Source: a virus
IMG/VR virus record: IMGVR_UViG_3300034092_003233
Span: 11,050-75,049 of that record
Direction: 5' to 3' (one strand)
Length of the DNA: 64,000 nucleotides
Every line of letters begins with the position of its first letter. The stretch's first letter is position 1. A program made the translations under genes and the position numbers. Below, piece after piece: positions 3-59,712 of the stretch. The notes beneath the pieces are model-generated. The model was not told the DNA's origin. It ran no database searches and was given only the letters and a program-made list of their open reading frames with translations.

Positions 3-1169
3 AAAAAAATAGTTGAAGAACAAGATAAATTAAAAGATGATGTGGCAAATATGTTCCGAGAAATTTTTGATATTAGTGAAGAATTCCAAACTTCAATGAT
101 ATTAGAATCATTTAGTGGTGTTGGTAAGTTTGGAGCAAATAATGCTGCATGTGCAACTCATTTACTCGGAATGAATAAAGATGGAACTGGTGTAAAAGTT
201 GATGTAATCAGCGAATCCCTTGTTAGAAAAATTCTTCCAGATTTAAAAATAAGAGGAGCATTCAAGGGGAGATCTAGGGCAGTTAAAGGACAGAAGAAAA
301 AAATGAGATCTTTTTCTACTTTGTTTAATATTGATTATACACCAAGACTACACGAACAAATGGAAAATTCTGCTTTAGGTGTCCCAATGAGTTCTGTGAT
401 GAAAAATGATTTAGATCAAATTGGAAATGATGTTAATGCACTTATGATGTATTCCGACTTAGAACCACAAATAATGGTATCTAATGAAATTGATGTTACA
501 GATTATATGGATGGAACATCTAGAGGTTATAATCAAATTGTTATAGATGGTAGAAAAGTTTTCTCTATTCCGGTTATGGATTACCAACAATTTGAGGAAA
601 ACCCACAGGAGATTAATGAACAATCATACGAGTTCATAAATGATTTCTTGATTGAAAATAAAAATAACGAAGAAGCACTCAACATTGCATTGACTTCTGG
701 CTTAGTTTCACCCGAAACAATAATGATGTGTGATTTAGAGTCAGACTTAGCAAGTTTGTTAAATGAAATGTGGGAAAATAGTTTATTGTCTCCAGAAATG
801 TTTGCAAGTTTTGTGAACGAGGCAAGAAATTATAGAAAAGAATATGATAATTATCATAGTAAACCAAAACAAAGAAAAAATAGATCTAGCAGAGTATTGG
901 CTCGGCGCAAAAAGATAAAAAAGGGACATGTCCGTAAAGGGGATGGAAATGATGTTCACCACGAAGATGGGAATCCACAAAACAATTCGGATTCAAATCT
1001 CAAGGTTCTTTCAAAGAGCAAAAATAGATCTATGAACGAAGAACATGGTGCAGGAGAAGCCGGAACAGATGAATTGCGAAAAAAATATGTGGAAGAAACA
1101 CCATATATGATTGATCCAGTTAAGAAGATTTTAAAAGGAGTAGTTAAAAATGGCATCAAACGCAACTGA
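3..1169 (+). CDS. Large hypothetical (probably virion-internal) protein with C-terminal HNH-like motif; 5'-truncated by the window edge
   Basis: Frame is open from position 3 (KKIVEEQDKLKDDVANM...). The C-terminal RNYRKEY...DVHHEDGNPQNNSDSNLKVLSKSKNRS resembles the HNH-type module common in T4-like phages. Confidence 0.6.
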   Translation, partial: KKIVEEQDKLKDDVANMFREIFDISEEFQTSMILESFSGVGKFGANNAACATHLLGMNKDGTGVKVDVISESLVRKILPDLKIRGAFKGRSRAVKGQKKKMRSFSTLFNIDYTPRLHEQMENSALGVPMSSVMKNDLDQIGNDVNALMMYSDLEPQIMVSNEIDVTDYMDGTSRGYNQIVIDGRKVFSIPVMDYQQFEENPQEINEQSYEFINDFLIENKNNEEALNIALTSGLVSPETIMMCDLESDLASLLNEMWENSLLSPEMFASFVNEARNYRKEYDNYHSKPKQRKNRSSRVLARRKKIKKGHVRKGDGNDVHHEDGNPQNNSDSNLKVLSKSKNRSMNEEHGAGEAGTDELRKKYVEETPYMIDPVKKILKGVVKNGIKRN

Positions 1170-1767
1170 CATAATACTTCATTGGTTTGAAGTGGCGAGT
1201 ATTGTCACCGCAGTAACTGTTGGTGTCTTTCTTACTGGTATTAAACTTTTATTCAAAAAGAAATGTGATGAAAACAAAAAATTTATTCAAGTTCATAGCG
1301 AAATACACGAAACCCTTACAGAACTTAGAATCAAAACAGATGCAGCAAGAGCACAAGTTATACAATTCCACAATGGAGAATACTTCATGGATGGAGTTTC
1401 GATGCGTAAGTTCACTCTCACTCACGAATCTTTGTCTCGCGGGATGTCGGCCGATGCCGGAAGAATTAAAGGATTGCTCTGCTCGATGTTTCTTCCACTA
1501 CTAAATGCAGTAGTAGCAAATGATCCAAAAATCATTTCAATGTATGATTTAGAGCATTCATTTTTTAAACAATTTTTTGAAGATAATAATGTAGAAGGAT
1601 TCTGTGTTTTACCAATAACTATAAAAAACCAAATTACTGGATTCGTATTATTACAATGGTGCAATTCGACTAAATTTGATTTAGTTGATACTGGCGTGGT
1701 GAAGGAAATGATGCAAACTGCGAGAAGCGCAATAGAAGTACAAATAGCATCTCAGAAAAAAGGTTAA
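1150..1767 (+). CDS. Single-pass membrane protein with GAF-like domain (T4 holin T-like architecture)
   Basis: N-terminal TM segment (WFEVASIVTAVTVGVFLTGIKLLF) followed by a GAF-like pattern (ARAQVIQFHNG...FCVLPITIKNQITGFVLLQW); 205 aa. Confidence 0.5.
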   Translation: MASNATDIILHWFEVASIVTAVTVGVFLTGIKLLFKKKCDENKKFIQVHSEIHETLTELRIKTDAARAQVIQFHNGEYFMDGVSMRKFTLTHESLSRGMSADAGRIKGLLCSMFLPLLNAVVANDPKIISMYDLEHSFFKQFFEDNNVEGFCVLPITIKNQITGFVLLQWCNSTKFDLVDTGVVKEMMQTARSAIEVQIASQKKG

Positions 1768-1773
1768 ATACTA

Positions 1774-2847
1774 ATGTTAAATGAAGATTTAAGAAGATGG
1801 TTTAGAGAAAAATGGGTTGATATATCCAAAAAGACAAAAGGTGGAAAACATCCTCCATGTGGAAGAGAAAAAGCCAAAGATTCAAAATACCCAAAGTGTA
1901 GACCATCTGTTAGAGTTTCATCAGAAACACCAGAAACTTCTGGGGAAATGACGAAAACAGAAAAGAAAAAGGCAGTGACACAAAAAAGAAGAGCAGAATC
2001 CAAAGTTAGCACAGAAGGAAAAGGAAGAAAACCAGTTATGACATCTCACAAAAAAATAAATGAAGAAACTTTAAACAAAATAACTAACTTTGTTTTAAAA
2101 CAATCTATACCTATGGTGAACAATCGGTTTGAATTTAATTTCAATAAAACAATACTAGAAAATATTGATTCTTCCTTCTTAAACAAAAAAGTAATAATTC
2201 AATACTTGAACGAAGAAAATGCCCCAGTATTCCAAAAAGGCATATTTAAAATAGCATCAAATGTAAAAATTAAAGAAGGTAAAGATTTTGAAATATTGAC
2301 AAATTCAGAATCAATTGGCGTTAATTATGAAGACATTCTTTCGTTAAAAACCATCAATGACAAACATATTATTCAATATGATATTTTAAATGAAGGAAAG
2401 AACAAACCAACAAATGCAAAACTCTGGTCAAAAGCAAAGTCACTAGCAAAGCAAAAGTTCAAAGTATATCCAAGTGCCTACGCCAATGGTTGGGCAGCAA
2501 AGTGGTATAAAAAACACGGAGGTGGTTGGAAAACCGTAAATGAAGAAGTTCAGAACAACATAGAAATAAATGAAGAAACAAAAAAAATAGTATCAAAGTT
2601 AGTTTCTAATCTTCTTCCCTCTTTAAATGAAGAAATTGTAAATGCAAAACACGCAGGAACAATGACTAAAAAGGAAATAAAAAGCAGAGACAAAATTGCG
2701 AAGAAAATAAAAGCAAAACCCATAAAGGGCAAAGATACTGAAGAAAATGCCAAATATCGGCTTGCTACTTATATTGAATTACGCAAGAGGGGTCAAGAAC
2801 CAAAACCCAAAAAGAAGAAAACAAAAAAGAAAAAAGGTAAACCATGA
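1774..2847 (+). CDS. Basic multi-module protein (DUF5872-like modules), probable head-internal protein
   Basis: EDLRRWFREKWVDI...PCGR...YPKCRP and KPTNAKLWSKAK...YPSAYANGWAAKWYKKHGGGWK modules, separated by LNE/INEE linkers. Confidence 0.55.
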   Translation: MLNEDLRRWFREKWVDISKKTKGGKHPPCGREKAKDSKYPKCRPSVRVSSETPETSGEMTKTEKKKAVTQKRRAESKVSTEGKGRKPVMTSHKKINEETLNKITNFVLKQSIPMVNNRFEFNFNKTILENIDSSFLNKKVIIQYLNEENAPVFQKGIFKIASNVKIKEGKDFEILTNSESIGVNYEDILSLKTINDKHIIQYDILNEGKNKPTNAKLWSKAKSLAKQKFKVYPSAYANGWAAKWYKKHGGGWKTVNEEVQNNIEINEETKKIVSKLVSNLLPSLNEEIVNAKHAGTMTKKEIKSRDKIAKKIKAKPIKGKDTEENAKYRLATYIELRKRGQEPKPKKKKTKKKKGKP

Positions 2848-3032
2848 AAAGTTTTACTGATTATTTAAAAGAACAAGAACAACCAAGTTTACCTTGGGAA
2901 CACGCCATAGAGGCAAAAAAGAAGAGAGAACAAGAGGAAAACTGGGATAAAGAGTACGATAAACACGCAGACAGAGGTGGCGTATCACACAAACAGATCA
3001 TAAATTTGATCGGTGAACGCCCAAAAGACTAA
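2844..3032 (+). CDS. Small hypothetical protein with capsid-targeting-like N-terminus
   Basis: MKSFTDYLKE resembles the T4 internal-protein capsid-targeting sequence MKTYQEFIAE; ATGA overlap with the upstream ORF. Confidence 0.5.
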   Translation: MKSFTDYLKEQEQPSLPWEHAIEAKKKREQEENWDKEYDKHADRGGVSHKQIINLIGERPKD

Positions 3033-3051
3033 ATCCCCAACAAAAAAGCCG

Positions 3052-3059
3052 CATAAATA
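3052..3059 (+). promoter_or_regulatory. T4-type late promoter (CATAAATA)
   Basis: One mismatch to TATAAATA; intergenic; followed by GAGGA SD and ATG at 3075. Confidence 0.6.
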
Positions 3060-3074
3060 AACAAAGAGGACAAC

Positions 3075-3566
3075 ATGAAACGATTTAAAGAACTCAGAAA
3101 CGAAATTCAAGAACTCGCAGAAGATTATTCCGAAGGTGGTGGAATGGGTTATGACCCAACCCTTTCATCAAAGGGTAGATCTGCTGTTGATATGGTTCAA
3201 CCAACAAACTATAACAATGTAGAGGAACTGGATAAACTAAATGCATTCTTATCCGCATTTACATCTAGAACCTATCTAGATCCAAAATCTGCTTTATTCT
3301 TGCTCAGAGCAAAAATGAATCATGTAAATGTTGATTTTGACATGACTAAAGCAACAGAATTAGAGATCGGAAAGCAGTATGAACTTCCACTAATGAGATT
3401 TGGTGGTACATTCGGAACTTCACCGACTCACGATCTTGCACAAGGTTTTGAAAAGACTAATGGGTTCAACGGTGGAAATTTTGTTCTTCAATTGACTGTA
3501 GAGCCATCAGGTGGAGAAGAACGAAGAGCACCATATTTCATCAAGGCAAGAATCGTAGAGAAGTAA
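3075..3566 (+). CDS. Conserved T4-like phage hypothetical protein
   Basis: 163-aa ORF with SD; N-terminus MKRFKELRNE is capsid-targeting-like. Confidence 0.6.
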   Translation: MKRFKELRNEIQELAEDYSEGGGMGYDPTLSSKGRSAVDMVQPTNYNNVEELDKLNAFLSAFTSRTYLDPKSALFLLRAKMNHVNVDFDMTKATELEIGKQYELPLMRFGGTFGTSPTHDLAQGFEKTNGFNGGNFVLQLTVEPSGGEERRAPYFIKARIVEK

Positions 3567-3573
3567 TATTTTT

Positions 3574-3954
3574 ATGAAGTTTGGAATTCTTAATGATGAT
3601 AATTTTATGATGTTTGCTATGCAACATTATGATAATCCTGTTTGTAAAGGCATACAAGAATTCAATGATGATTTGACTAGAGTAAAGTATATAAAAAGAT
3701 TACTCAACAGATATGATAAAACAAAAGACTTGAAAGAAAGATTAATTCTAAATCACATAATTTTATTGAATAATGTATTTGGCAATGAAGCGTGTTCTAG
3801 AATTCTTTTCTTTAAGGTCTGTCCCAAACTTCATCCATATTTAAAGTCGTTTTTGGAATATTTAAATATATTGCCAAAAACAATACCGGAAGCCGATTTG
3901 ACTAAAATTATGAGTGATCATAGAATAAACATACTTTTAAAGAATCTAAAATGA
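3574..3954 (+). CDS. Conserved T4-like phage hypothetical protein
   Basis: LNDDNFMMFAMQHYDNP...KYIKRLL...LKERLILNHIILLNNVFG is a recognisable core family of aquatic T4-like phages. Confidence 0.75.
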   Translation: MKFGILNDDNFMMFAMQHYDNPVCKGIQEFNDDLTRVKYIKRLLNRYDKTKDLKERLILNHIILLNNVFGNEACSRILFFKVCPKLHPYLKSFLEYLNILPKTIPEADLTKIMSDHRINILLKNLK

Positions 3955-5588
3955 ATTCACTTTCTTATTCCAACATAGTAACAAGTTTCACAATATGGGA
4001 GTTTTTGTCGGAATTGACAAAACCATTCACCCAAATGGATATTTACAGGGTTGGGATAATAGACGCGAATGGTAAATTTCTCAAAGATCCGCAAGACTAC
4101 AAAACACAACAAGAAGCCAGAGCAGGGAATGCCTTTTATCGTCTTATAGTTGTTCTAAAGAGAGCATTACGAACATCATCAGATCCAATGGTTAGATACG
4201 CCATGACAAATCCGATGGCTGCTCTACGAGCATTGTCAGAAGAAGTAGAAACTCTTGGTGGGAATTCTAATTACTTTTTAGAGTATCTTACTCCCATTGT
4301 AGAAGAAATGTCTGTTGGTGGTGGTGGAATTGTTGGAGTGGGAGTTCCTGCTGACAAACCAGAGGATGTTGTAGTTACTCCACAAGCAGCCAAAAAGCAC
4401 AAGAGAAGAGTAAAAACAGGAGTTGGTAGAAAACTCTTTGAACAGTTATTAACCGAAGCAAAACGAGTTGTAGAAACAACCGGTCACATGACACATGTTG
4501 GTGATTTCTTATATCATGGTGATCCTATGGTTGCTATAAAGCATTTAGAAGCAACTCATAAAAGGTTTCATACTGGTAGGGAAACAAAAGATCATAAATT
4601 ATCATTGAAGGCTGATGGTGGGATGAGCATTGTTATAAAACGACACAAAGACGGAACTCCTGCTGTTGCTTATAAAACTGGTGCCGCAGAGTATCGAACC
4701 GAAAAGGAAATAGAAGCCGCGGGAAAACCACACTTAACCGCATCTCTTGTTCCAGCACTTCAATTGGCGAAAAAACTAAATTTAAGACCAGGAACAGCAG
4801 TACAAGGAGATTTGTTGTTTGCCGGCTCTGAGCATCGCGGTAGAGCACAGCCAAATGCAATTAATTATTCTGTTCCACATAATTCCACAATTGGTTTTGC
4901 TCCACATTCTGAATACAAAACAGATGGCGGAACATTAGATCTTAGAAAGACATCAAGCCATCCAGATCATTCGGGATTGCAAGCGGAAGGTGCATTTATT
5001 CCAAATTTGGCAATAACTAAAAAAACCAAACTAGCATTGACACCAAAAAGAAATGCTTTGATTTCCAAATCATTGACTGCTGCTAAAAAAATTCTGTCAG
5101 ATAAACAACTGATAAAATTCAGCAAATCATTACCATCAAATAAAAAATTTCACAAAATGTTACAAGAATACTCAAATCACGCAGCAAGAACAAGTGGTGT
5201 TAGAACTACTGATAATTTGAGAAAGTTCATTGATATTCACATGAACAAGGCATCTCAACGAGGTTTATCCGAAAAAACCAAAAAATCTATGGTAGATTCT
5301 TTTCATGGATTCATAAACACAAATTCGCATCATTTTGATAACCTTTTTGCAGCACACGGACACATAAACACGGCAAAACACGCCATGTTAGATCAATTTG
5401 GAGAACATCACGATCAATTTAGTCTTCGTACTCATGGTGGTGAAGAACACGAAGGATTTGTATCTGCTTTAGGTGTCCCCGGAGTTAGGGAAACCCAAGC
5501 AAAGTTTGTCAGAGAAGGTCCCGGTGGATTCCCAGAGAAGAATGTCAAAAATGCCATTATTCGCTTCGGAAAAGCACCAGAAGCATAA
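3951..5588 (+). CDS. Fusion of a conserved T4-like N-terminal domain and a DUF6267-like ligase-type nucleotidyltransferase domain
   Basis: N-terminal LTKPF...GIIDANGKFLK; C-terminal KADG, VQGDLLF, EGFV and AKFV appear in the order of covalent-NTase motifs I, III, IV and V. Confidence 0.55.
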   Translation: MNSLSYSNIVTSFTIWEFLSELTKPFTQMDIYRVGIIDANGKFLKDPQDYKTQQEARAGNAFYRLIVVLKRALRTSSDPMVRYAMTNPMAALRALSEEVETLGGNSNYFLEYLTPIVEEMSVGGGGIVGVGVPADKPEDVVVTPQAAKKHKRRVKTGVGRKLFEQLLTEAKRVVETTGHMTHVGDFLYHGDPMVAIKHLEATHKRFHTGRETKDHKLSLKADGGMSIVIKRHKDGTPAVAYKTGAAEYRTEKEIEAAGKPHLTASLVPALQLAKKLNLRPGTAVQGDLLFAGSEHRGRAQPNAINYSVPHNSTIGFAPHSEYKTDGGTLDLRKTSSHPDHSGLQAEGAFIPNLAITKKTKLALTPKRNALISKSLTAAKKILSDKQLIKFSKSLPSNKKFHKMLQEYSNHAARTSGVRTTDNLRKFIDIHMNKASQRGLSEKTKKSMVDSFHGFINTNSHHFDNLFAAHGHINTAKHAMLDQFGEHHDQFSLRTHGGEEHEGFVSALGVPGVRETQAKFVREGPGGFPEKNVKNAIIRFGKAPEA

Positions 5589-5591
5589 ATA
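5584..5591 (+). promoter_or_regulatory. T4-type late promoter (CATAAATA)
   Basis: Precedes GGAGG SD and ATG at 5611. Confidence 0.6.
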
Positions 5592-5610
5592 ACATAAACG
5601 GAGGTATAGT

Positions 5611-6048
5611 ATGTTTCCAACAGAATTGATTTCCATGCTAGGCGGTGGGATCACAGGGTTTCTTTTTAGGTATTGGGCGCAAAGAGCACAAGATCAAAAA
5701 GAAATGTTCCAAATGGCAATGGAAGCTAATAAGCAGACAACCGAGAATCAGGACAAAGCAGTAAAGAGAGTCCCAATTGATGTGGGTAAGGGCGTTCGTC
5801 AATTTATTGTTTTAACTGTTTTATTCGGAACAATTGCAGCACCATTTATACTACCATTTTTTGGTGTACCAACTTTCGTAGAAGTTGATGCAAAGAATCC
5901 AGAGGGGTTATTTGGTTTAATCCCAGAAACCACTAAGAAGTTCTTTGTTCAGATAAATGGATTCCTTTATACTTCCGAGAATAGACAAATTCTTCTTAGT
6001 ATCATTGGATTTTATTTTGGTACTGCCGCTGGCGGAAACAAATCATAA
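5611..6048 (+). CDS. Membrane protein with ~3 TM segments (holin-like)
   Basis: Hydrophobic segments at the N-terminus, middle (FIVLTVLFGTIAAPFILPFFG) and C-terminus (ILLSIIGFYFG); strong SD. Confidence 0.55.
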   Translation: MFPTELISMLGGGITGFLFRYWAQRAQDQKEMFQMAMEANKQTTENQDKAVKRVPIDVGKGVRQFIVLTVLFGTIAAPFILPFFGVPTFVEVDAKNPEGLFGLIPETTKKFFVQINGFLYTSENRQILLSIIGFYFGTAAGGNKS

Positions 6049-6057
6049 GGAGTTGCA

Positions 6058-6351
6058 ATGAGACTTATCATATCAGCGATCATTTTATTTTTACTTTTTG
6101 GGTGTGACACAACACCACAAATAATTCCAGACACAACTCCGGATAATGCAATCATATTGGGGATGAAGGACAGAATAAACGAGCCTGGTGCCGGGCATTC
6201 TTCGTATAGTTGGGTATTTTGGTATGTTCCAATTCTTATCATAGCACTTTTATGGGCGTATAGAGAATATATCCGTAAGCCACTTTTGTGCGATGATGGC
6301 GAACAAAAAGACGAAGTTGTAGAAACAAAAAACACACCATCTGGTGTGTAA
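6058..6351 (+). CDS. Lipoprotein with C-terminal TM helix (u-spanin-like topology)
   Basis: Signal peptide with lipobox LLFG-C; second hydrophobic helix WVFWYVPILIIALLWAY; AAGGAG SD. Confidence 0.5.
   Translation: MRLIISAIILFLLFGCDTTPQIIPDTTPDNAIILGMKDRINEPGAGHSSYSWVFWYVPILIIALLWAYREYIRKPLLCDDGEQKDEVVETKNTPSGV
6323..6349 (-). terminator. Intrinsic terminator closing the - strand ncRNA unit
   Basis: ACACACC-AGAT-GGTGTGT 7-bp stem (6332-6349) followed on the - strand by TTTTTGTTT. Confidence 0.6.
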
Positions 6352-6540
6352 TTTGCTCCTCAGATTGGAAATCAATTAGAGGGAGCCATGCGAAAAAGGA
6401 TTAGTATGGTTTTACCGAAGCACTCTCAATTTGCACATCTTCAAAAGGGACCCCTATTACAAGGAGGTGATCCAGCCATTACACTCTGGGACAATCCCGG
6501 TATGAGAGCCGTTGATAAGGTTAACTCCACTCCAACTGAT
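6325..6540 (-). ncRNA. Candidate late-expressed ~215-nt ncRNA containing the 16S rRNA 3' tail (anti-Shine-Dalgarno)
   Basis: Perfect late promoter at 6545-6552 and terminator at 6323-6349. Exact GGCTGGATCACCTCCTT at 6477-6461. Several stems; only very short ORFs on this strand. Confidence 0.6.
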
Positions 6541-6544
6541 AGAT

Positions 6545-6552
6545 TATTTATA
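6545..6552 (-). promoter_or_regulatory. T4 late promoter, perfect TATAAATA
   Basis: + strand tatttata at 6545-6552, intergenic; gp55 late sigma is encoded in the window. Confidence 0.7.
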
Positions 6553-6581
6553 ATTTATTCAGTTTTGGAAAAATAAACATA

Positions 6582-7142
6582 CTATTCTTTGGCAGAAATA
6601 GTCTGCCATAAACTCTTACAGATGTAATAAGAGTCTACGATGTCGGAAACGGGGTTTCCGACATCTTTTTTATTGGGGGTAATAATATCTTTCAGCATTA
6701 ATCCAGTTTCGGATACAAAAGCATTGTACATCGATTCTTTGTCCGCATTTCCCTTCCCCGTCGCGTTCTTTTTCACTACTGTGGGTGGAATCGTATCCAC
6801 TGGTATCCCCTGCTGAAATAGTTTGTATTTCAAGATTCCAGTATTTTCCGCTATATGAAATACTCTGCCCTTGGCGGCGTAGGCGTAATCTTCTATGCCA
6901 ACCATCTTGCAACCGATTAGGTATTGAATAGCCCATTCCGAAATTGTGTCGTATCTTTGACATTCGCTATTGTAATCCTCAAATGATTCACCACGAACAT
7001 TTCCAATAAAGGTTGTTTGTAGTTTTTTAACATCAGACAAAAAGTAAACCATGCAAGTATTGAAAGAAAACCCACCCAAGGCAGAGTTGTATATACAAAT
7101 ACTAGGAGAGGTTAAACTATAATCAATTCCCGCATATATCAT
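6582..7142 (-). CDS. RuvC-like (RNase H fold) nuclease / Holliday junction resolvase
   Basis: AGIDYSLTSP (first catalytic D), GIEDYAY (E), KKNATGKGNADK, SDIVDSYYI (D..D). Confidence 0.8.
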   Translation of the reverse strand: MIYAGIDYSLTSPSICIYNSALGGFSFNTCMVYFLSDVKKLQTTFIGNVRGESFEDYNSECQRYDTISEWAIQYLIGCKMVGIEDYAYAAKGRVFHIAENTGILKYKLFQQGIPVDTIPPTVVKKNATGKGNADKESMYNAFVSETGLMLKDIITPNKKDVGNPVSDIVDSYYICKSLWQTISAKE

Positions 7143-7147
7143 GTAGG

Positions 7148-7155
7148 TATTTATT
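7148..7155 (-). promoter_or_regulatory. Late promoter (AATAAATA) 5 nt upstream of the RuvC-like ATG
   Basis: AATAAATA-cctac-ATG; no room for an SD. Confidence 0.55.
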
Positions 7156-7161
7156 AACCTA

Positions 7162-7242
7162 ACAGGAGTAGTGGTTCCGGCGGCCTGAAGATCGGTACTT
7201 CAAACGATCCTGAGGCGAAGCGGGTCCGGCCACTACTCCTGT
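7162..7242. ncRNA. GC-rich 81-nt long-hairpin element of unknown function
   Basis: Perfect 13-bp closing stem ACAGGAGTAGTGG/CCACTACTCCTGT with nested GCCT/AGGC and GATCG/CGATC helices; fills the dcm-ruvC gap. Confidence 0.5.
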
Positions 7243-7246
7243 ACTA

Positions 7247-8176
7247 TTATATAGTGGCTTTAAGCCGTTTTGCTACCCATTCTGCCACATTCACCGTGAC
7301 AGCATTTCCCATCTGATTATATCTTGCGCTATTAGATAATCCCTCTGTCCAATTATCAGGAAACCCCTGAAGTCTTTCCGTTTCAATTGGAGTAAGATAT
7401 CTAACTCTATCTTCGTTTTCTATTACTAAAACACTAGATCTTTGTCTGACATCAAATAAATTTAAAGTGTTTGCGTAATCAGTTTCTATCCAAGTCTCAA
7501 AGTCTTTTTTTGTTTGTGCTTTTCTAGACTTTCTAATTGTTATGGGGTATTTTTGATCAGGTTCGTCAAAGAGAGAGTTAACGGTGGATACAAAGTTTTT
7601 CCGTTGCGCTGTCCTCGCTCTAGAATCCCCTCGCATGTCTTCTTTGAGAGCAAGTACTTCTGATGCGCGTTCTCCTGCAAGATCTGCGATAACGAACACT
7701 CTTTCTCTTCTTTGGGGAACACCGAAGAATCTGCTGTCCAAAACTCTCCATGCGATAGATTTAGGGTTCCACTGTTTGACCATTTCGTGGAGAACGACGG
7801 CGAAATCCCTTCCTTTATTGCTTGTGAGCATTCCGGGGACATTTTCGACCACCACGAAGGATGGTTGTTTTGGCATGTCTCTGACGATTCGAATAAACTC
7901 ATAAAATAATCCTGATCTTTCTCCTGCTAATCCTTTTCTATTTCCAGCCACAGACAAATCTTGACACGGAAATCCACCAACAACCACATCTACTGATTCT
8001 ATTTTGGTTGGATCTATAGAGCAAACATCATCATATATTTTTGTATTTGGAAAATGTTTGCTGAGAATATTTCTGCATGTTTTCTCTTTATCACATGCCC
8101 AAGAAATAGAAAACCCTTGACGCTCAAATCCGAGATCAAGACCTCCAACTCCTGAGAATAACGATCCTACCTTCAT
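7247..8176 (-). CDS. dcm: DNA (cytosine-5) methyltransferase
   Basis: SLFSGVGG (I), GGFPCQD (IV), ENVPG (VI), QRRERVF (VIII), RLQGFPD and QMGNAV (IX/X). Confidence 0.95.
   Translation of the reverse strand: MKVGSLFSGVGGLDLGFERQGFSISWACDKEKTCRNILSKHFPNTKIYDDVCSIDPTKIESVDVVVGGFPCQDLSVAGNRKGLAGERSGLFYEFIRIVRDMPKQPSFVVVENVPGMLTSNKGRDFAVVLHEMVKQWNPKSIAWRVLDSRFFGVPQRRERVFVIADLAGERASEVLALKEDMRGDSRARTAQRKNFVSTVNSLFDEPDQKYPITIRKSRKAQTKKDFETWIETDYANTLNLFDVRQRSSVLVIENEDRVRYLTPIETERLQGFPDNWTEGLSNSARYNQMGNAVTVNVAEWVAKRLKATI
7540..7902 (-). CDS. Nested alternative-frame polypeptide resembling the beta subunit of heterodimeric C5 MTases (M.EcoHK31I type)
   Basis: Lies wholly within dcm in another frame; contains CSLSQILQE...KYLLSKKTCEGILERG; AGGA 7 nt before its ATG. 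Confidence 0.65.
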   Translation of the reverse strand: MSLFESSETCQNNHPSWWSKMSPECSQAIKEGISPSFSTKWSNSGTLNLSHGEFWTADSSVFPKEEKECSLSQILQENAHQKYLLSKKTCEGILERGQRNGKTLYPPLTLSLTNLIKNTP

Positions 8177-8371
8177 TTATTGCTTACCAGAGTTCATACA
8201 AGTTTTTGTTGACTTTGGTGGTTTTATTGTATCCCGAATTATTCCACACATGATTCCATATAATACCACAGGAATTAGAAATAGTAAACAACCATATAGA
8301 ACAAATGGATCATGCCATTTTGTGGGTCTATAATCGTCATAAAGATGATTGTTCGATTGCATATGTTCCAA
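8177..8371 (-). CDS. Small membrane protein
   Basis: 64 aa with one hydrophobic helix; fills the gap in the operon. Confidence 0.45.
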   Translation of the reverse strand: MEHMQSNNHLYDDYRPTKWHDPFVLYGCLLFLIPVVLYGIMCGIIRDTIKPPKSTKTCMNSGKQ

Positions 8372-9107
8372 TTTTTAGTTCTCCTTTGATATCCTCATAG
8401 AGAAAAGTGCAGTTATCTTTTTCAGTCCAGCATCCGCAGTTTGCGTATACCGTCCCATGCACTTCCGCAATCTTTGGATTGTGAAGATGTCCGCATATCA
8501 CACCATCATACTTCTTGTCCTTGGCGTATCTGCATATGACATCTTCAAAACTTTCAATGAACTGTGCTGCCCTCTTTACTTTAATCTTTACATACTTGGA
8601 CAAAGACCAGTATCGCATTCCTAATGCTCTACGACACCAATTGAAGATTTCATTTAGATCAAGCATAATTTCGTATCCAATGTCTCCAAGTTTGTAAACA
8701 GAAGAACTGATTGGATATTTGGTTAGCAAATCAAACTGATGTCCGTGAAGAACGAGAAACTTCTTTCCGTTCTTGGTGGTGTAATCCATTCTCTCGTACA
8801 GAGAAATGTTTCCAAATATTTCATGCCCTATAAACTTTGCCATGAACTCGTCATGGTTTCCATAGATGTAATGAACCTTGGTTCCCTTGCGAGAAAGTTT
8901 CAACAATCTTTCCACGACTTCAACCTGCCCAATCTGCTTCTCATGGCGCATGGAGAATGCGTCCTTGAATCTCCAAATGTCTATGATATCACCTACCAAG
9001 TAGATGTTATCGAAGGTATTGAACTTCAGGAAGTCTATGAGAGGCTTGTGTTTTGCCTTCTTGGAGGCAAGGTGAAAGTCTGACAGAAAGACTGTTGTGT
9101 AATGCAT
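8337..9107 (-). CDS. Calcineurin-like metallophosphoesterase, LpxH/YbbF (UDP-2,3-diacylglucosamine hydrolase)-like
   Basis: SDFH, GDIID, GNHD, HGH and GHLH motifs. Confidence 0.85.
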   Translation of the reverse strand: MHYTTVFLSDFHLASKKAKHKPLIDFLKFNTFDNIYLVGDIIDIWRFKDAFSMRHEKQIGQVEVVERLLKLSRKGTKVHYIYGNHDEFMAKFIGHEIFGNISLYERMDYTTKNGKKFLVLHGHQFDLLTKYPISSSVYKLGDIGYEIMLDLNEIFNWCRRALGMRYWSLSKYVKIKVKRAAQFIESFEDVICRYAKDKKYDGVICGHLHNPKIAEVHGTVYANCGCWTEKDNCTFLYEDIKGELKIGTYAIEQSSL

Positions 9108-58121: not shown

Positions 58122-59158
58122 ATAGAAAGGCTCTCAATATACAATTCATGAATAAGAGTTTTTATCTTTGTTTTATCTTCTGATATTTCTAACTTGTCTA
58201 TTTCTTCATTAATAATACTCATAGTATCCTGAGTTGTGTCTATATCATCTGAAGATGTTTCTACCATTTCTTCGACAATATTAAGATTTATAACACCAGC
58301 CAAAACCATTTTATCTACCCATTGATCAAACTTAACGGCGTTTGTTTTCTTAGAAACTAGAACCTTAACATAGGAGTTCTTGTAATGAGAAAAATCATCA
58401 CCCATTGGATCCTTTTTAGTATCATCATAAACAATGATATGATACATTTTTTCTGGGTTTTGAATGAATTCTAATTCTCTAGTTTCTGTATCAAATACAT
58501 GAAATCCTTTGTTTAGTCTGGCATCAGAAAATGTAATTTGATATTGTGTTCCCAGATAATGAACATTTTTCTTTGATGCTTTACCATGAAAATGACCACT
58601 CAATACCATGTCATAACAAGACAACACAGTATCATCCATACCGCCTTCAAAATTAATTCCCGGTATTACTTCATATCCATTGAGTTCAAAATGACCACAA
58701 ATAATTGAAGCGGGGCAAGTCTTTATAAAAGAATGAAATATTTGCTCGTTTTCTTTGTTTATCCAAGGAACCATTGCAATTTTAAGACCATCAAACTCTA
58801 AAAGAGTTGGTTCTTCATATAAATGAATATGCTTATACCGATTGGTAAATAGTTCCCGTATTGAATTAATCGCATTGGTGTTCTTAAAAAATGTATCATG
58901 GTTGCCAAGAATACAATGCAAATCTATATTATTTTTTTCAAACACTTCAATAAAATCACTTCGAACTCTTGCAAGTGTATTGAAGTTAACAAACTTTCTG
59001 CGATCCATAAGGTCGCCCAAATGAAGTACTGTTTTTATTGCATGTGTTTCACAGTATGGAAAAAACTGCTCATTAAAGAAACGCATGAAATAATCCAGAA
59101 ATAATGGAGAATCATTTCTGGCACCAAAGTGCGTATCATTGATAATTGCAATCTTCAT
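58118..59158 (-). CDS. gp47: Recombination nuclease gp47 (Mre11/SbcD-like)
   Basis: DTHFG, GDLMD, GNHD, GHFE, SGHFH. Confidence 0.95.
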   Translation of the reverse strand: MKIAIINDTHFGARNDSPLFLDYFMRFFNEQFFPYCETHAIKTVLHLGDLMDRRKFVNFNTLARVRSDFIEVFEKNNIDLHCILGNHDTFFKNTNAINSIRELFTNRYKHIHLYEEPTLLEFDGLKIAMVPWINKENEQIFHSFIKTCPASIICGHFELNGYEVIPGINFEGGMDDTVLSCYDMVLSGHFHGKASKKNVHYLGTQYQITFSDARLNKGFHVFDTETRELEFIQNPEKMYHIIVYDDTKKDPMGDDFSHYKNSYVKVLVSKKTNAVKFDQWVDKMVLAGVINLNIVEEMVETSSDDIDTTQDTMSIINEEIDKLEISEDKTKIKTLIHELYIESLSI

Positions 59159-59712
59159 CTCTTCTTTTTTTTCTTCTTTGGTTCAAACTTTTTAATATCG
59201 TTTTCACTTATTTGAAAATATTCAGACATGGCTTCTCTTACATTGTCTTTATCAAAATAGTTTTCTTTGAACCATTTGTGATAATTGCCATCGTCATGAA
59301 TTTCTGTCATCTTAAGTTTAATGTATGCCTGTTTTTTCTCTTTTTCTATTCTTCGCAAGAACGCATAATATATGATCTGCGTAAAATACGAAAATGGATT
59401 TTTTGATTTTTCTGGGTCGAAATTATGGGCATACATTAAACAGTTTTCTATACCATCAGAAACCATTTCCTCCCTGTATGGGTAGTTCATAAAATTTACT
59501 TTTCTAGACAAATGTTCAGCAATATTCATAAAACACTCGCCTATGTAATTTGTTATGGGTGGTCTAGGTTCATCTAATTCTTCTGCTTCTGTGCATAATT
59601 TCTTCCAAAGAATCATTTCTTCATAAAACTTTTTATTATCGATGTAATGATCCTTGATGTCGTTATCTAATTTTAATTCGACATCAGGTTTCTTTTTTTT
59701 CTTTTTAGCCAT
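59155..59712 (-). CDS. gp55: Late-transcription sigma factor gp55
   Basis: HYIDNKKF...NFMNYPYREEMVSDGIENC...NPFSYFTQIIYYAFLRRIEKEKKQ. Confidence 0.95.
   Translation of the reverse strand: MAKKKKKKPDVELKLDNDIKDHYIDNKKFYEEMILWKKLCTEAEELDEPRPPITNYIGECFMNIAEHLSRKVNFMNYPYREEMVSDGIENCLMYAHNFDPEKSKNPFSYFTQIIYYAFLRRIEKEKKQAYIKLKMTEIHDDGNYHKWFKENYFDKDNVREAMSEYFQISENDIKKFEPKKKKKKR

What the first reader, a model, noticed from the sequence alone, without database searches (positions are those of the whole stretch)
6323..6552. Late-promoter-driven phage ncRNA carrying an exact copy of the 16S rRNA 3' tail (anti-Shine-Dalgarno)
Seen: + strand 6461-6477 is AAGGAGGTGATCCAGCC, so the - strand reads GGCUGGAUCACCUCCUU. 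A perfect TATAAATA (6552-6545) points into the element and a hairpin plus U-tract terminator (6349-6323) closes it. This defines a ~215-nt unit with no - strand ORF longer than ~30 codons. It has internal pairings: GCUCUCA/UGAGAGU long-range, GGGA/UCCC, the GCUCC...GGAGC hairpin, and a stem that could sequester the anti-SD against AGGGGU. Known: this 17-mer is the conserved 3' end of most bacterial 16S rRNAs (3' strand of helix 45 plus anti-SD). The chance expectation for a given 17-mer in 2 x 64 kb is about 1e-5 at uniform composition. Inference: a phage-encoded mimic of the ribosome's 3' tail. It could (i) sponge SD sequences of host or early mRNAs late in infection, (ii) decoy host RNases/toxins that cut near the 16S 3' end (MazF or colicin E3 type) or anti-SD-binding proteins (bS21, bS1), or (iii) supply a replacement tail for cleaved ribosomes. 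I know of no described RNA family matching this.
Basis: partly seen in the sequence, partly recalled or inferred. Interest (0 to 1): 0.95.

Follow-up and report, generated by a model that had tools for sequence, protein, structure and literature searches.

The report
Phage RNA copying the 16S tail
A group of uncultured freshwater T4-like phages keeps a roughly 215-base non-coding element whose unchanging 15-base core is identical to the end of bacterial 16S ribosomal RNA, so it probably interferes with how ribosomes or their helper proteins recognise that tail, but nobody has seen the RNA or tested it.

Summary
AAGGAGGTGATCCAGCC is at 6461-6477, TATAAATA at 6552-6545 (-), and a hairpin plus T run at 6349-6323 (-). 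It is not a primer or 16S chimera: about 30 independent IMG/VR and JGI contigs carry the element with diverged flanks.

The element always lies in the convergent gap after a RuvC-like gene. The invariant block is 15 nt, GGCUGGAUCACCUCC; the two final U vary.

A + strand ORF (53-60 aa) is open in every lineage. It evolves like non-coding sequence (pN/pS about 1, against 0.13-0.23 in RuvC next door) and has no relatives outside the clade.

The - strand reading is favoured. The promoter box is invariant in a phage that has a gp55-like late sigma. The terminator and two outer helices show compensatory changes, and the consensus fold is better (-36 vs -25 kcal/mol).

The core helices never vary, so the anti-SD hairpin is only a prediction. 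A conserved + strand terminator inside ruvC means the complementary strand is probably transcribed too. That strand would resemble the published rreB/rreR RNAs, which dock on 30S subunits.

No Rfam family matches. Function is inferred only. The scan had already met this RNA family in another genome.

The parts
6545..6552 (-). TATAAATA box, T4-type late promoter of the element
   Evidence: Exact match. It is invariant in all 13 distinct family sequences while both flanks vary. It is read in two DNA-verified reading frames of the + ORF (window lineage L-F-I; L002 lineage E-Y-L-Y). A third frame is consistent with protein P0013. A gp55-like late sigma is encoded at 59155-59712. ATAAATA occurs 14 times on the - strand against 4 on the + strand, often just upstream of starts.
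6323..6538 (-). predicted body of the non-coding RNA (about 215 nt); start inferred from the T4 rule, -13 to -6 box
   Evidence: The covariance model R1 matches 6328-6547 at 223.6 bits, and there is one copy in the record. RNAalifold gives -36.1 kcal/mol for this strand against -24.9 for the other. 97% of cells are paired, and 6 pairs show changes on both sides, all in outer helices. There is no Rfam match. The RNA ends are inferred, not observed.
6463..6477 (-). invariant 15-mer GGCUGGAUCACCUCC, identical to the 16S rRNA 3' region (base of helix 45, GAUCA linker, anti-SD core)
   Evidence: Invariant in all family members. Synonymous positions of the overlapping + ORF never change here. The two following U (6461-6462) vary.
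6448..6473 (-). predicted hairpin pairing GGAUC(A)CCU with AGGGGUCC, leaving CCUUGUAAU in the loop (intramolecular SD/anti-SD-like duplex)
   Evidence: Predicted by RNAalifold and by a single-sequence fold. All 8 pairs never vary, so covariation neither supports nor contradicts it. At -7.9 kcal/mol it is no better than shuffles. All variable positions (columns 86-89) fall in the loop.
6423..6508 (-). long-range helix CUCUCA (6508-6503) with UGAGRG (6428-6423) enclosing the core
   Evidence: 13 of 13 sequences are paired. U-A alternates with U-G, which would be a C-A mismatch on the + strand.
6323..6349 (-). intrinsic terminator of the - strand RNA (hairpin plus U run)
   Evidence: Found by the scan. 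There are compensatory changes C-G to U-A and A-U to G-C (helix 10), and a U run follows in every lineage.
6406..6576 (+). ORF of 56 aa (62 aa from the upstream ATG at 6388) that overlaps the element; probably not a protein gene
   Evidence: It is open in all lineages, but 9-17% of column shuffles stay open too. Variable columns by codon position are 13/15/16. NG86 dN/dS is about 1, and its synonymous divergence (dS 0.04-0.47) is well below RuvC's pS of 0.31-0.75. There is a frame shift in the L002 lineage. There are no Pfam, PHROG or NCBIfam hits and no relatives outside the clade among 1.84 billion representatives.
6639..6675 (+). + strand intrinsic terminator (12-bp stem plus T6) embedded in the 3' end of ruvC
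   Evidence: Found by the scan. The nucleotides are invariant across about 10 synonymous sites of ruvC in all lineages, while only the loop varies. This implies + strand transcription across the element.
6591..6607 (.). conserved hairpin GGCAGA-N5-TCTGCC at the ruvC stop codon
   Evidence: The stem is invariant and the loop variable in all lineages. Its role is unknown.

Best explanation
The stretch 6323-6552 is a non-coding RNA gene of a narrow clade of uncultured freshwater T4-like phages. It is transcribed late from the - strand, starting about 6 nt after an invariant TATAAATA box read by the phage's gp55-type sigma. It ends at an intrinsic terminator beside the convergent + strand genes. 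The RNA folds into a multi-helix structure. Its invariant centre, GGCUGGAUCACCUCC, copies 16S rRNA from the base of helix 45 through the GAUCA linker to the anti-SD core.

I think it most likely acts as a decoy of the 16S 3' tail. It would offer that sequence, partly paired with an SD-like AGGGGUCC, to whatever normally reads the tail.

The identity extends 10 nt beyond what SD pairing needs. It ends exactly where the Era and anti-SD recognition sequence ends. I therefore rank a tail-binding protein (Era, bS21 or bS18 type, or a tail-cutting nuclease) above simple sponging of mRNA SD sequences.

Shown: conservation, non-coding evolution, the promoter box and terminator, and outer-helix covariation. 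Inferred: that the RNA exists, its ends, the core hairpin, and every step of the function.
For: - The family has about 30 contigs from different samples, always downstream of ruvC, with the 15-mer invariant.
- It evolves as non-coding sequence: pN/pS is about 1 and synonymous sites are 2-10 times more conserved than in RuvC.
- TATAAATA is invariant and is read in different frames of the ORF. A gp55 homologue is present. The T4 late promoter is defined as TATAAATA at -13 to -6 (PMC1524935). The DNA polymerase is T4 g43-like.
- The terminator and helices 1 and 9 show compensatory changes.
- The - strand consensus fold is 11 kcal/mol better, and 56 G-U cells would be mismatches on the + strand, against 21 the other way.
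- No - strand gene lies downstream, so it is not a leader.
- Era reads GAUCA plus CCUCC and the base of h45 (PMC10582724). bS21 binds an anti-SD/SD mimic in OLE RNA (PMC12054373).
Against:
- The core helices, including the anti-SD hairpin, never vary, and the hairpin is no more stable than shuffles.
- Whole-element folding gives only z = -1.9.
- The 17-mer occurs in IMG/VR about as often as chance predicts, so coincidence is not excluded.
- The conserved + strand terminator shows that the other strand is probably made too.
- The + ORF is open in all lineages.
- No bS21 gene is in the record, which is 41% complete.
- No extended SD target was found in the record.
- The host is unknown.
Confidence: 0.42

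Rival explanations
1. The working molecule is the + strand. The element is the 3' part of the late + strand transcript (ligase-like gene, two small membrane proteins, then the element), which ends at the conserved terminator inside ruvC. Its AAGGAGGUGAUCCAGCC is an extended Shine-Dalgarno sequence without a start codon. It docks 30S subunits through the free 16S tail, as the rreB/rreR small mRNAs do. It could also serve as a splint. The - strand RNA would then be its late antisense partner, or a by-product.
For: - A + strand terminator at 6639-6675 is invariant at synonymous ruvC sites.
- The T1 hairpin has only a weak U tract on the + strand, so read-through is likely.
- CATAAATA boxes lie upstream of the + genes at 3075 and 5611.
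- rreB/rreR carry 16-17 nt complementary to the 16S 3' end and co-sediment with 30S subunits (PMC5711450).
- The element lies on the same strand as the ligase-like gene, about 0.9 kb downstream of it, in every member.
Against: - No start codon follows the complementarity region in any lineage.
- No + strand promoter of its own is conserved.
- The consensus fold is weaker on this strand, and many G-U pairs become C-A mismatches.
- The invariant TATAAATA and the - strand terminator would be left unexplained.
- The part pairing with the most accessible 16S end (UU) is the variable part.
Confidence: 0.2
2. It is a real structured RNA or convergent-transcription control region whose identity to the 16S tail is coincidence. 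It would work through other features, for example as an antisense or terminator module that separates the two late transcription units, or as the processed 3' end of the ruvC message.
For: - IMG/VR holds about 8 independent unrelated copies of the 17-mer, close to the chance expectation.
- A scan of some 250,000 windows is expected to meet such a word by chance.
- Two further conserved hairpins and two terminators crowd this gap.
- The core hairpin has no covariation or stability support.
Against: - The invariant block is exactly the 15 nt that match 16S, and variation begins at both of its borders.
- The chance that a given invariant 15-mer equals this region of 16S is about 1e-9 per register.
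- Synonymous sites are frozen there.
Confidence: 0.2
3. The conserved element is a small protein gene on the + strand (MVLPKH...GGDPA...TLW...), and the 16S-like word simply encodes Q-G-G-D-P-A.
For: - The ORF is open in every lineage, with a conserved ATG and an AAAGGA 5-6 nt upstream.
- One indel is in frame.
- Some third-position changes are synonymous.
- Gene callers predicted it in 14 clusters.
Against: - pN/pS is about 1, against 0.13-0.23 in the neighbouring gene.
- Synonymous sites are far more conserved than in RuvC.
- There is no codon-position bias.
- 9-17% of shuffles stay open.
- The C-terminal frame changes between lineages.
- There is no family hit and no relative outside the clade.
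Confidence: 0.08
4. It is an assembly or primer artefact: universal primer 1525R or a 16S fragment joined to phage DNA.
Against: The same junctions, with diverged flanks, occur in about 30 contigs from different metagenomes. The word lies inside a conserved alignment without any break.
Confidence: 0.01

Closest known systems
rreB / rreR small mRNAs of alpha-proteobacteria (Hahn et al. 2016, PMC5711450)
   Same: They are small transcripts of about 165 nt with 16-17 nt of perfect relation to the 16S 3' end, reaching into the base of helix 45. They bind 30S subunits strongly. The + strand of the phage element shares AAGGAGGUGAUCCAG with the sequence deduced for that region.
   Different: In rre the complementary strand is the functional one. 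A GTG start overlaps its last base and a conserved 14-18 codon ORF follows. Here no start codon follows, the favoured strand is the opposite one (a copy of the tail, not its complement), and the element is phage-borne.
OLE RNA P6 substructure, an anti-SD/SD mimic bound by ribosomal protein bS21 (PMC12054373)
   Same: It is a structured non-coding RNA carrying a copy of the 16S anti-SD, predicted to pair within the molecule with an SD-like purine run. In OLE, mutation of the mimic abolishes binding of a ribosomal tail-binding protein.
   Different: OLE is a roughly 600-nt RNA of Bacillota that copies only CCUCCU. The phage RNA is about 215 nt, unrelated in sequence, and copies 15 nt including GAUCA and part of helix 45. 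No protein partner is known.
Natural ligand of Era: h45 plus GAUCACCUCC of 16S rRNA (Tu et al. 2009, 2011, as reviewed in PMC10582724)
   Same: The invariant phage 15-mer equals the last bases of h45 plus the complete 10-nt Era recognition sequence, and it stops at the same C.
   Different: Era reads this stretch single-stranded, next to a full helix 45. The phage RNA shows no h45-like hairpin upstream, and it is predicted to pair GAUC. Binding is untested.
C-rich anti-SD seed sRNAs (RsaE/RoxS, RNAIII type; recalled, not tested here) and T4 RegB, which inactivates early mRNAs at GGAG (PMC3014915)
   Same: These are trans-acting factors that target SD sequences to shut off groups of mRNAs. RegB shows that T4-type phages do this.
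   Different: Those sRNAs use short C-rich loops, not a 15-nt copy of the 16S tail. RegB is a protein nuclease.

Membership tests
Any Rfam 15 family | match to a curated covariance model | tested here: not met
   cmscan of 5500-7500 with permissive filters gave only chance-level rows (E 0.9-7), and none covered the core of the element.
rre small mRNAs (rreB/rreR) | at least 16 nt of perfect complementarity to the 16S 3' end | tested here: met
   The + strand has 17 nt in this window. 15 nt are invariant across the family.
rre small mRNAs (rreB/rreR) | GTG/ATG start whose first base ends the complementarity region, followed by a conserved 14-18 codon ORF | tested here: not met
   The next codon is ATT, GTT, AAG, GAG, ACA or ACG depending on the lineage. 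The overlapping long ORF evolves with pN/pS about 1.
rre small mRNAs (rreB/rreR) | co-sedimentation with 30S subunits | not testable with these tools
   This needs biochemistry.
T4-type late transcription unit | TATAAATA box at -13 to -6 and a gp55-type sigma in the phage | tested here: met
   The box is exact and invariant. A gp55 homologue scores E = 1e-56. The rule comes from PMC1524935. The transcript start itself was not observed.
Independent structured sRNA gene | secondary structure supported by compensatory changes | tested here: inconclusive
   6 of 46 pairs show changes on both sides, all in helices 1, 9 and 10. The five core helices never vary. Only 13 distinct sequences, about 7 lineages, were available.
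Protein-coding gene (+ ORF) | purifying selection on amino acids (dN/dS well below 1, third-position bias) | tested here: not met
OLE RNA | roughly 600-nt conserved architecture of Bacillota with OapA/B/C sites | tested here: not met
   There is no Rfam OLE hit. Length and host differ. Only the anti-SD/SD motif idea is shared.

The most novel reading that the evidence does not exclude
The element and the co-transcribed ligase-like enzyme form an RNA-guided repair module for the ribosome. The + strand RNA is complementary to 16S nt ~1525-1541. It would splint a 16S tail cut by a host anti-phage ribonuclease, so that the nick-sealing-type RNA ligase encoded 0.9 kb upstream can reseal it. The late - strand copy would act as a decoy for the same nuclease.
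Probability: 0.04. Interest if true: 0.95.

Novelty: new variant of a known kind. Interest (0 to 1): 0.62.

Why it matters
If the RNA is made and really imitates the 16S tail, it would be the first phage-encoded mimic of a ribosomal RNA segment. That would be a new way for a virus to interfere with translation start-site selection, 30S maturation (Era) or tail-directed host nucleases. It would join OLE P6 and the rre RNAs as natural molecules built around the SD/anti-SD interaction. It is directly testable: the RNA is short, the critical 15 nt are defined, and candidate partners (30S, Era, bS21) are standard reagents. If the identity is coincidence, what remains is an ordinary clade-specific phage sRNA.

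Tried and rejected
- **Chimera or primer artefact:** rejected.
- **Protein gene on the + strand:** rejected as the main explanation. The only extra hits of the profile search were translated repeat arrays (P0054, P0056), each unit too weak to count.
- **Known RNA family:** none. No tRNA or tmRNA in the window.
- **More distant members:** none in RuvC-bearing relatives with 55% identity or less, in four further virus records including one complete 145-kb genome, in distant DUF6267 loci, or in GTDB species genomes.
- **Mimicry of a pre-16S trailer (CCUCCUU...UAGGGGU):** no 16S gene with such a trailer was found.
- **A specific phage mRNA target with extended complementarity:** none in the 75-kb record.
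- **A helix-45-like hairpin upstream of the 15-mer:** no consistent pairing across lineages (manual reading).
- **A long-range partner for the variable 19-nt linker:** a covariation scan was too noisy with 13 related sequences.
- **bS21 gene:** none in the record, which is 41% complete.
- **Functional link to the ligase-like gene through independent co-occurrence:** not found; the two are linked only by clade synteny.

Full report
**1. The observation**

The + strand reads AAGGAGGTGATCCAGCC at 6461-6477. It occurs once in the window and in 0 of 100 shuffles. TATAAATA lies at 6552-6545 on the - strand. A 7-bp hairpin followed by a T run lies at 6349-6332 and beyond on the - strand.

The window is part of a 75-kb IMG/VR virus record estimated 41% complete. 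Plus-strand genes run from 3 to 6351 and minus-strand genes from 6582 to 64000. The stretch is therefore a convergent gap.

**2. Not an artefact; a clade-wide element**

- The 17-mer with its flank is present in six other IMG/VR contigs.
- Searching through the neighbouring RuvC-like protein gave 39 loci. All 25 with RuvC at 82% identity or more carry the element directly downstream. All 14 with 55% or less lack it.
- Two searches with other conserved blocks returned the same 25 contigs.
- A metagenome scan added freshwater JGI contigs and one new lineage, L070.
- The flanks and the variable parts differ between lineages, so a primer or 16S chimera is excluded.
- The invariant block is 15 nt, GGCUGGAUCACCUCC. 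The two following U change in four lineages.

**3. What kind of phage**

The DNA polymerase is 50% identical to g43 of T4-like cyanomyophages. UvsX, gp41- and gp61-like genes, RNR and tail genes are present. A gp55-type late sigma is encoded at 59155-59712, with E = 1e-56.

T4 late promoters are TATAAATA at -13 to -6, with a variable first base in relatives (PMC1524935). In the window ATAAATA occurs 14 times on the - strand and 4 times on the + strand, and several copies lie 5-30 nt before starts.

**4. Coding or not**

A + strand ORF (6406-6576, or 6388-6576 from the upstream ATG) is open in all lineages at 53-60 aa. It has a conserved ATG and an AAAGGA upstream.

- Variable columns fall 13/15/16 on codon positions 1, 2 and 3.
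- Pairwise Nei-Gojobori ratios scatter around 1, from 0.46 to 4.4.
- RuvC next door has pN/pS of 0.13-0.23, with pS mostly 0.45-0.75 (0.31 for the closest pair). The ORF's corrected synonymous divergence is only 0.04-0.47.
- Keeping the frame open is not rare under shuffling of the variable columns (9-17%).
- The C-terminal part changes frame in the L002 lineage and, judging from the predicted proteins, in others. The nucleotides TATTTATA stay fixed even so.
- No Pfam, PHROG or NCBIfam family matches.
- Profile searches find only the clade itself. The extra hits are translated repeat arrays.

The constraint is on nucleotides, not on a protein. Translation of some peptide is not excluded.

**5. 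Which strand**

For the - strand:
- The late-promoter box is invariant.
- The terminator has compensatory changes.
- Two further outer helices have compensatory changes.
- The RNAalifold energy is -36.1 kcal/mol against -24.9.
- 56 cells are G-U on this strand and would be C-A on the other, against 21 the other way round.
- No downstream - strand gene exists that it could regulate in cis.

Against certainty:
- The five core helices never vary.
- The anti-SD hairpin (-7.9 kcal/mol) is no better than shuffled sequence.
- Whole-element z-scores are modest on both strands, -1.9 and -1.7.
- A 12-bp hairpin plus T6 on the + strand at 6639-6675, inside the ruvC reading frame, is invariant over about ten synonymous sites in all lineages while only its loop varies. 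This is best read as a + strand terminator, so + strand transcripts very probably cross the element.
- CATAAATA boxes precede the + genes at 3075 and 5611.

Both strands are thus likely made late in infection.

**6. What the 15-mer corresponds to**

It equals the last five bases of helix 45 (GGCUG) plus GAUCACCUCC. According to the Era review, the KH domain of Era reads GAUCA and the anti-SD CCUCC as a single strand and touches the base of h45 (PMC10582724).

In OLE RNA a copy of CCUCCU paired with an SD-like run forms an SD/anti-SD mimic, and bS21 binding there is lost when the mimic is mutated (PMC12054373). The phage RNA is predicted to pair GGAUC(A)CCU with AGGGGUCC and to leave CCUUGUAAU in the loop. 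All positions that vary lie in that loop.

On the opposite strand the sequence is a 17-nt extended SD. Small mRNAs with exactly such 16-17-nt regions, rreB and rreR, are known to bind 30S subunits (PMC5711450). The phage element lacks their start codon and short conserved ORF.

**7. How likely is coincidence**

In all of IMG/VR the 17-mer occurs in 34 contigs:
- 22 belong to this family;
- 3 are true 16S ends;
- 9 (about 8 independent) lie in unrelated coding-like sequence.

That is about the chance number, so frequency gives no support. The support comes from position. The invariant block of a conserved non-coding element coincides base for base with the 16S stretch, and variation starts at both borders. 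I put the probability that the identity matters functionally, on either strand, at roughly two in three.

**8. Mechanism**

My best reading (0.42) is a late - strand RNA that acts as a decoy of the 16S tail. I rank a tail-reading protein above plain sponging of SD sequences. Ten of the fifteen invariant bases are not needed for SD pairing, and the anti-SD core is partly sequestered in the predicted fold.

The rivals are:
- a + strand rre-like docking element, or a sense/antisense pair (0.20);
- a structured RNA or control region with a coincidental match (0.20);
- a small protein gene (0.08);
- an artefact (0.01).

No extended target was found in the record. No 16S trailer resembles the 3' half of the hairpin. 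No bS21 gene lies in the available 41% of the genome.

**9. Neighbourhood**

The 545-aa protein at 3951-5588 (DUF6267) has invariant K-A-D-G, E-G and K motifs. Its model (pLDDT 74.8, with the C-terminal 360 residues mostly above 85) aligns best with RNA ligases:
- Naegleria nick-sealing ligase, Z 9.8, rmsd 3.9 over 189 residues;
- T4 Rnl2, Z 8.4;
- T4 Rnl1, Z 8.2;
- DNA ligases, about Z 7.

It sits on the + strand about 0.9 kb upstream of the element in every clade member. Distant homologues have no such element. The link is therefore synteny, not independent co-occurrence. This allows, but does not support, a splint-and-ligase repair idea; I give it 4%.

**10. Novelty and earlier notes**

No Rfam family matches, no GenBank phage DNA matches, and my literature searches found no paper describing such a phage RNA.

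The scan had already met the same RNA family in another genome (e1-5785799), with a similar verdict. That note pointed me to the OLE paper. A note on a different phage family (e1-5644303) pointed me to the rre paper. I read both papers myself.

Noticed in passing
window 3951-5588 (+): The 545-aa DUF6267 protein has invariant KADG, EG and K motifs and a predicted ligase nucleotidyltransferase fold. The fold is closest to nick-sealing RNA ligases (Z 9.8) and T4 Rnl2/Rnl1 (Z about 8). It is probably an unannotated phage RNA ligase family.
   Followed up: partly
window 6639-6675 (+), inside ruvC: A 12-bp hairpin plus T6 is embedded in the RuvC reading frame (K-K-D-V-G-N-P-V-S-D-I-V). It is frozen at synonymous sites in all lineages and looks like a terminator for the opposite strand placed inside a gene.
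   Followed up: partly
window 7163-7242 (-): A GC-rich long hairpin (13-bp outer stem ACAGGAGUAGUGG/CCACUACUCCUGU around a structured interior) lies between the C5-methyltransferase stop and the AATAAATA box of ruvC. Lineage L024 has RNR directly upstream of ruvC and lacks this segment.
   Followed up: no
window 5611-6351 (+): Two small membrane proteins precede the element. The 97-aa one has a lipoprotein-type signal (LLFGC) plus a C-terminal membrane helix, like a unimolecular spanin. Both have among the strongest SD sequences in the window and a CATAAATA box upstream, so they may form a late lysis cassette.
   Followed up: no
proteins P0054 and P0056: The profile of the + ORF weakly hits translated repeat arrays. 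One is a 48-nt tandem repeat (..TLWASPHMAAVDKIH..). The other is a CRISPR-like array with period 24 aa (LQRGPVFADGDR). Each unit alone is not significant, and the DNA could not be fetched.
   Followed up: no
window 6591-6607: A GGCAGA-N5-TCTGCC hairpin lies over the last codons of ruvC. Its stem is invariant and its loop free to vary in all lineages.
   Followed up: no
window 7247-8176 (-) and 8337-9107 (-): A C5 DNA methyltransferase and a calcineurin-type metallophosphoesterase lie between RNR and ruvC in this lineage. They are absent at that place in L024, so they look like a lineage-specific insertion.
   Followed up: no
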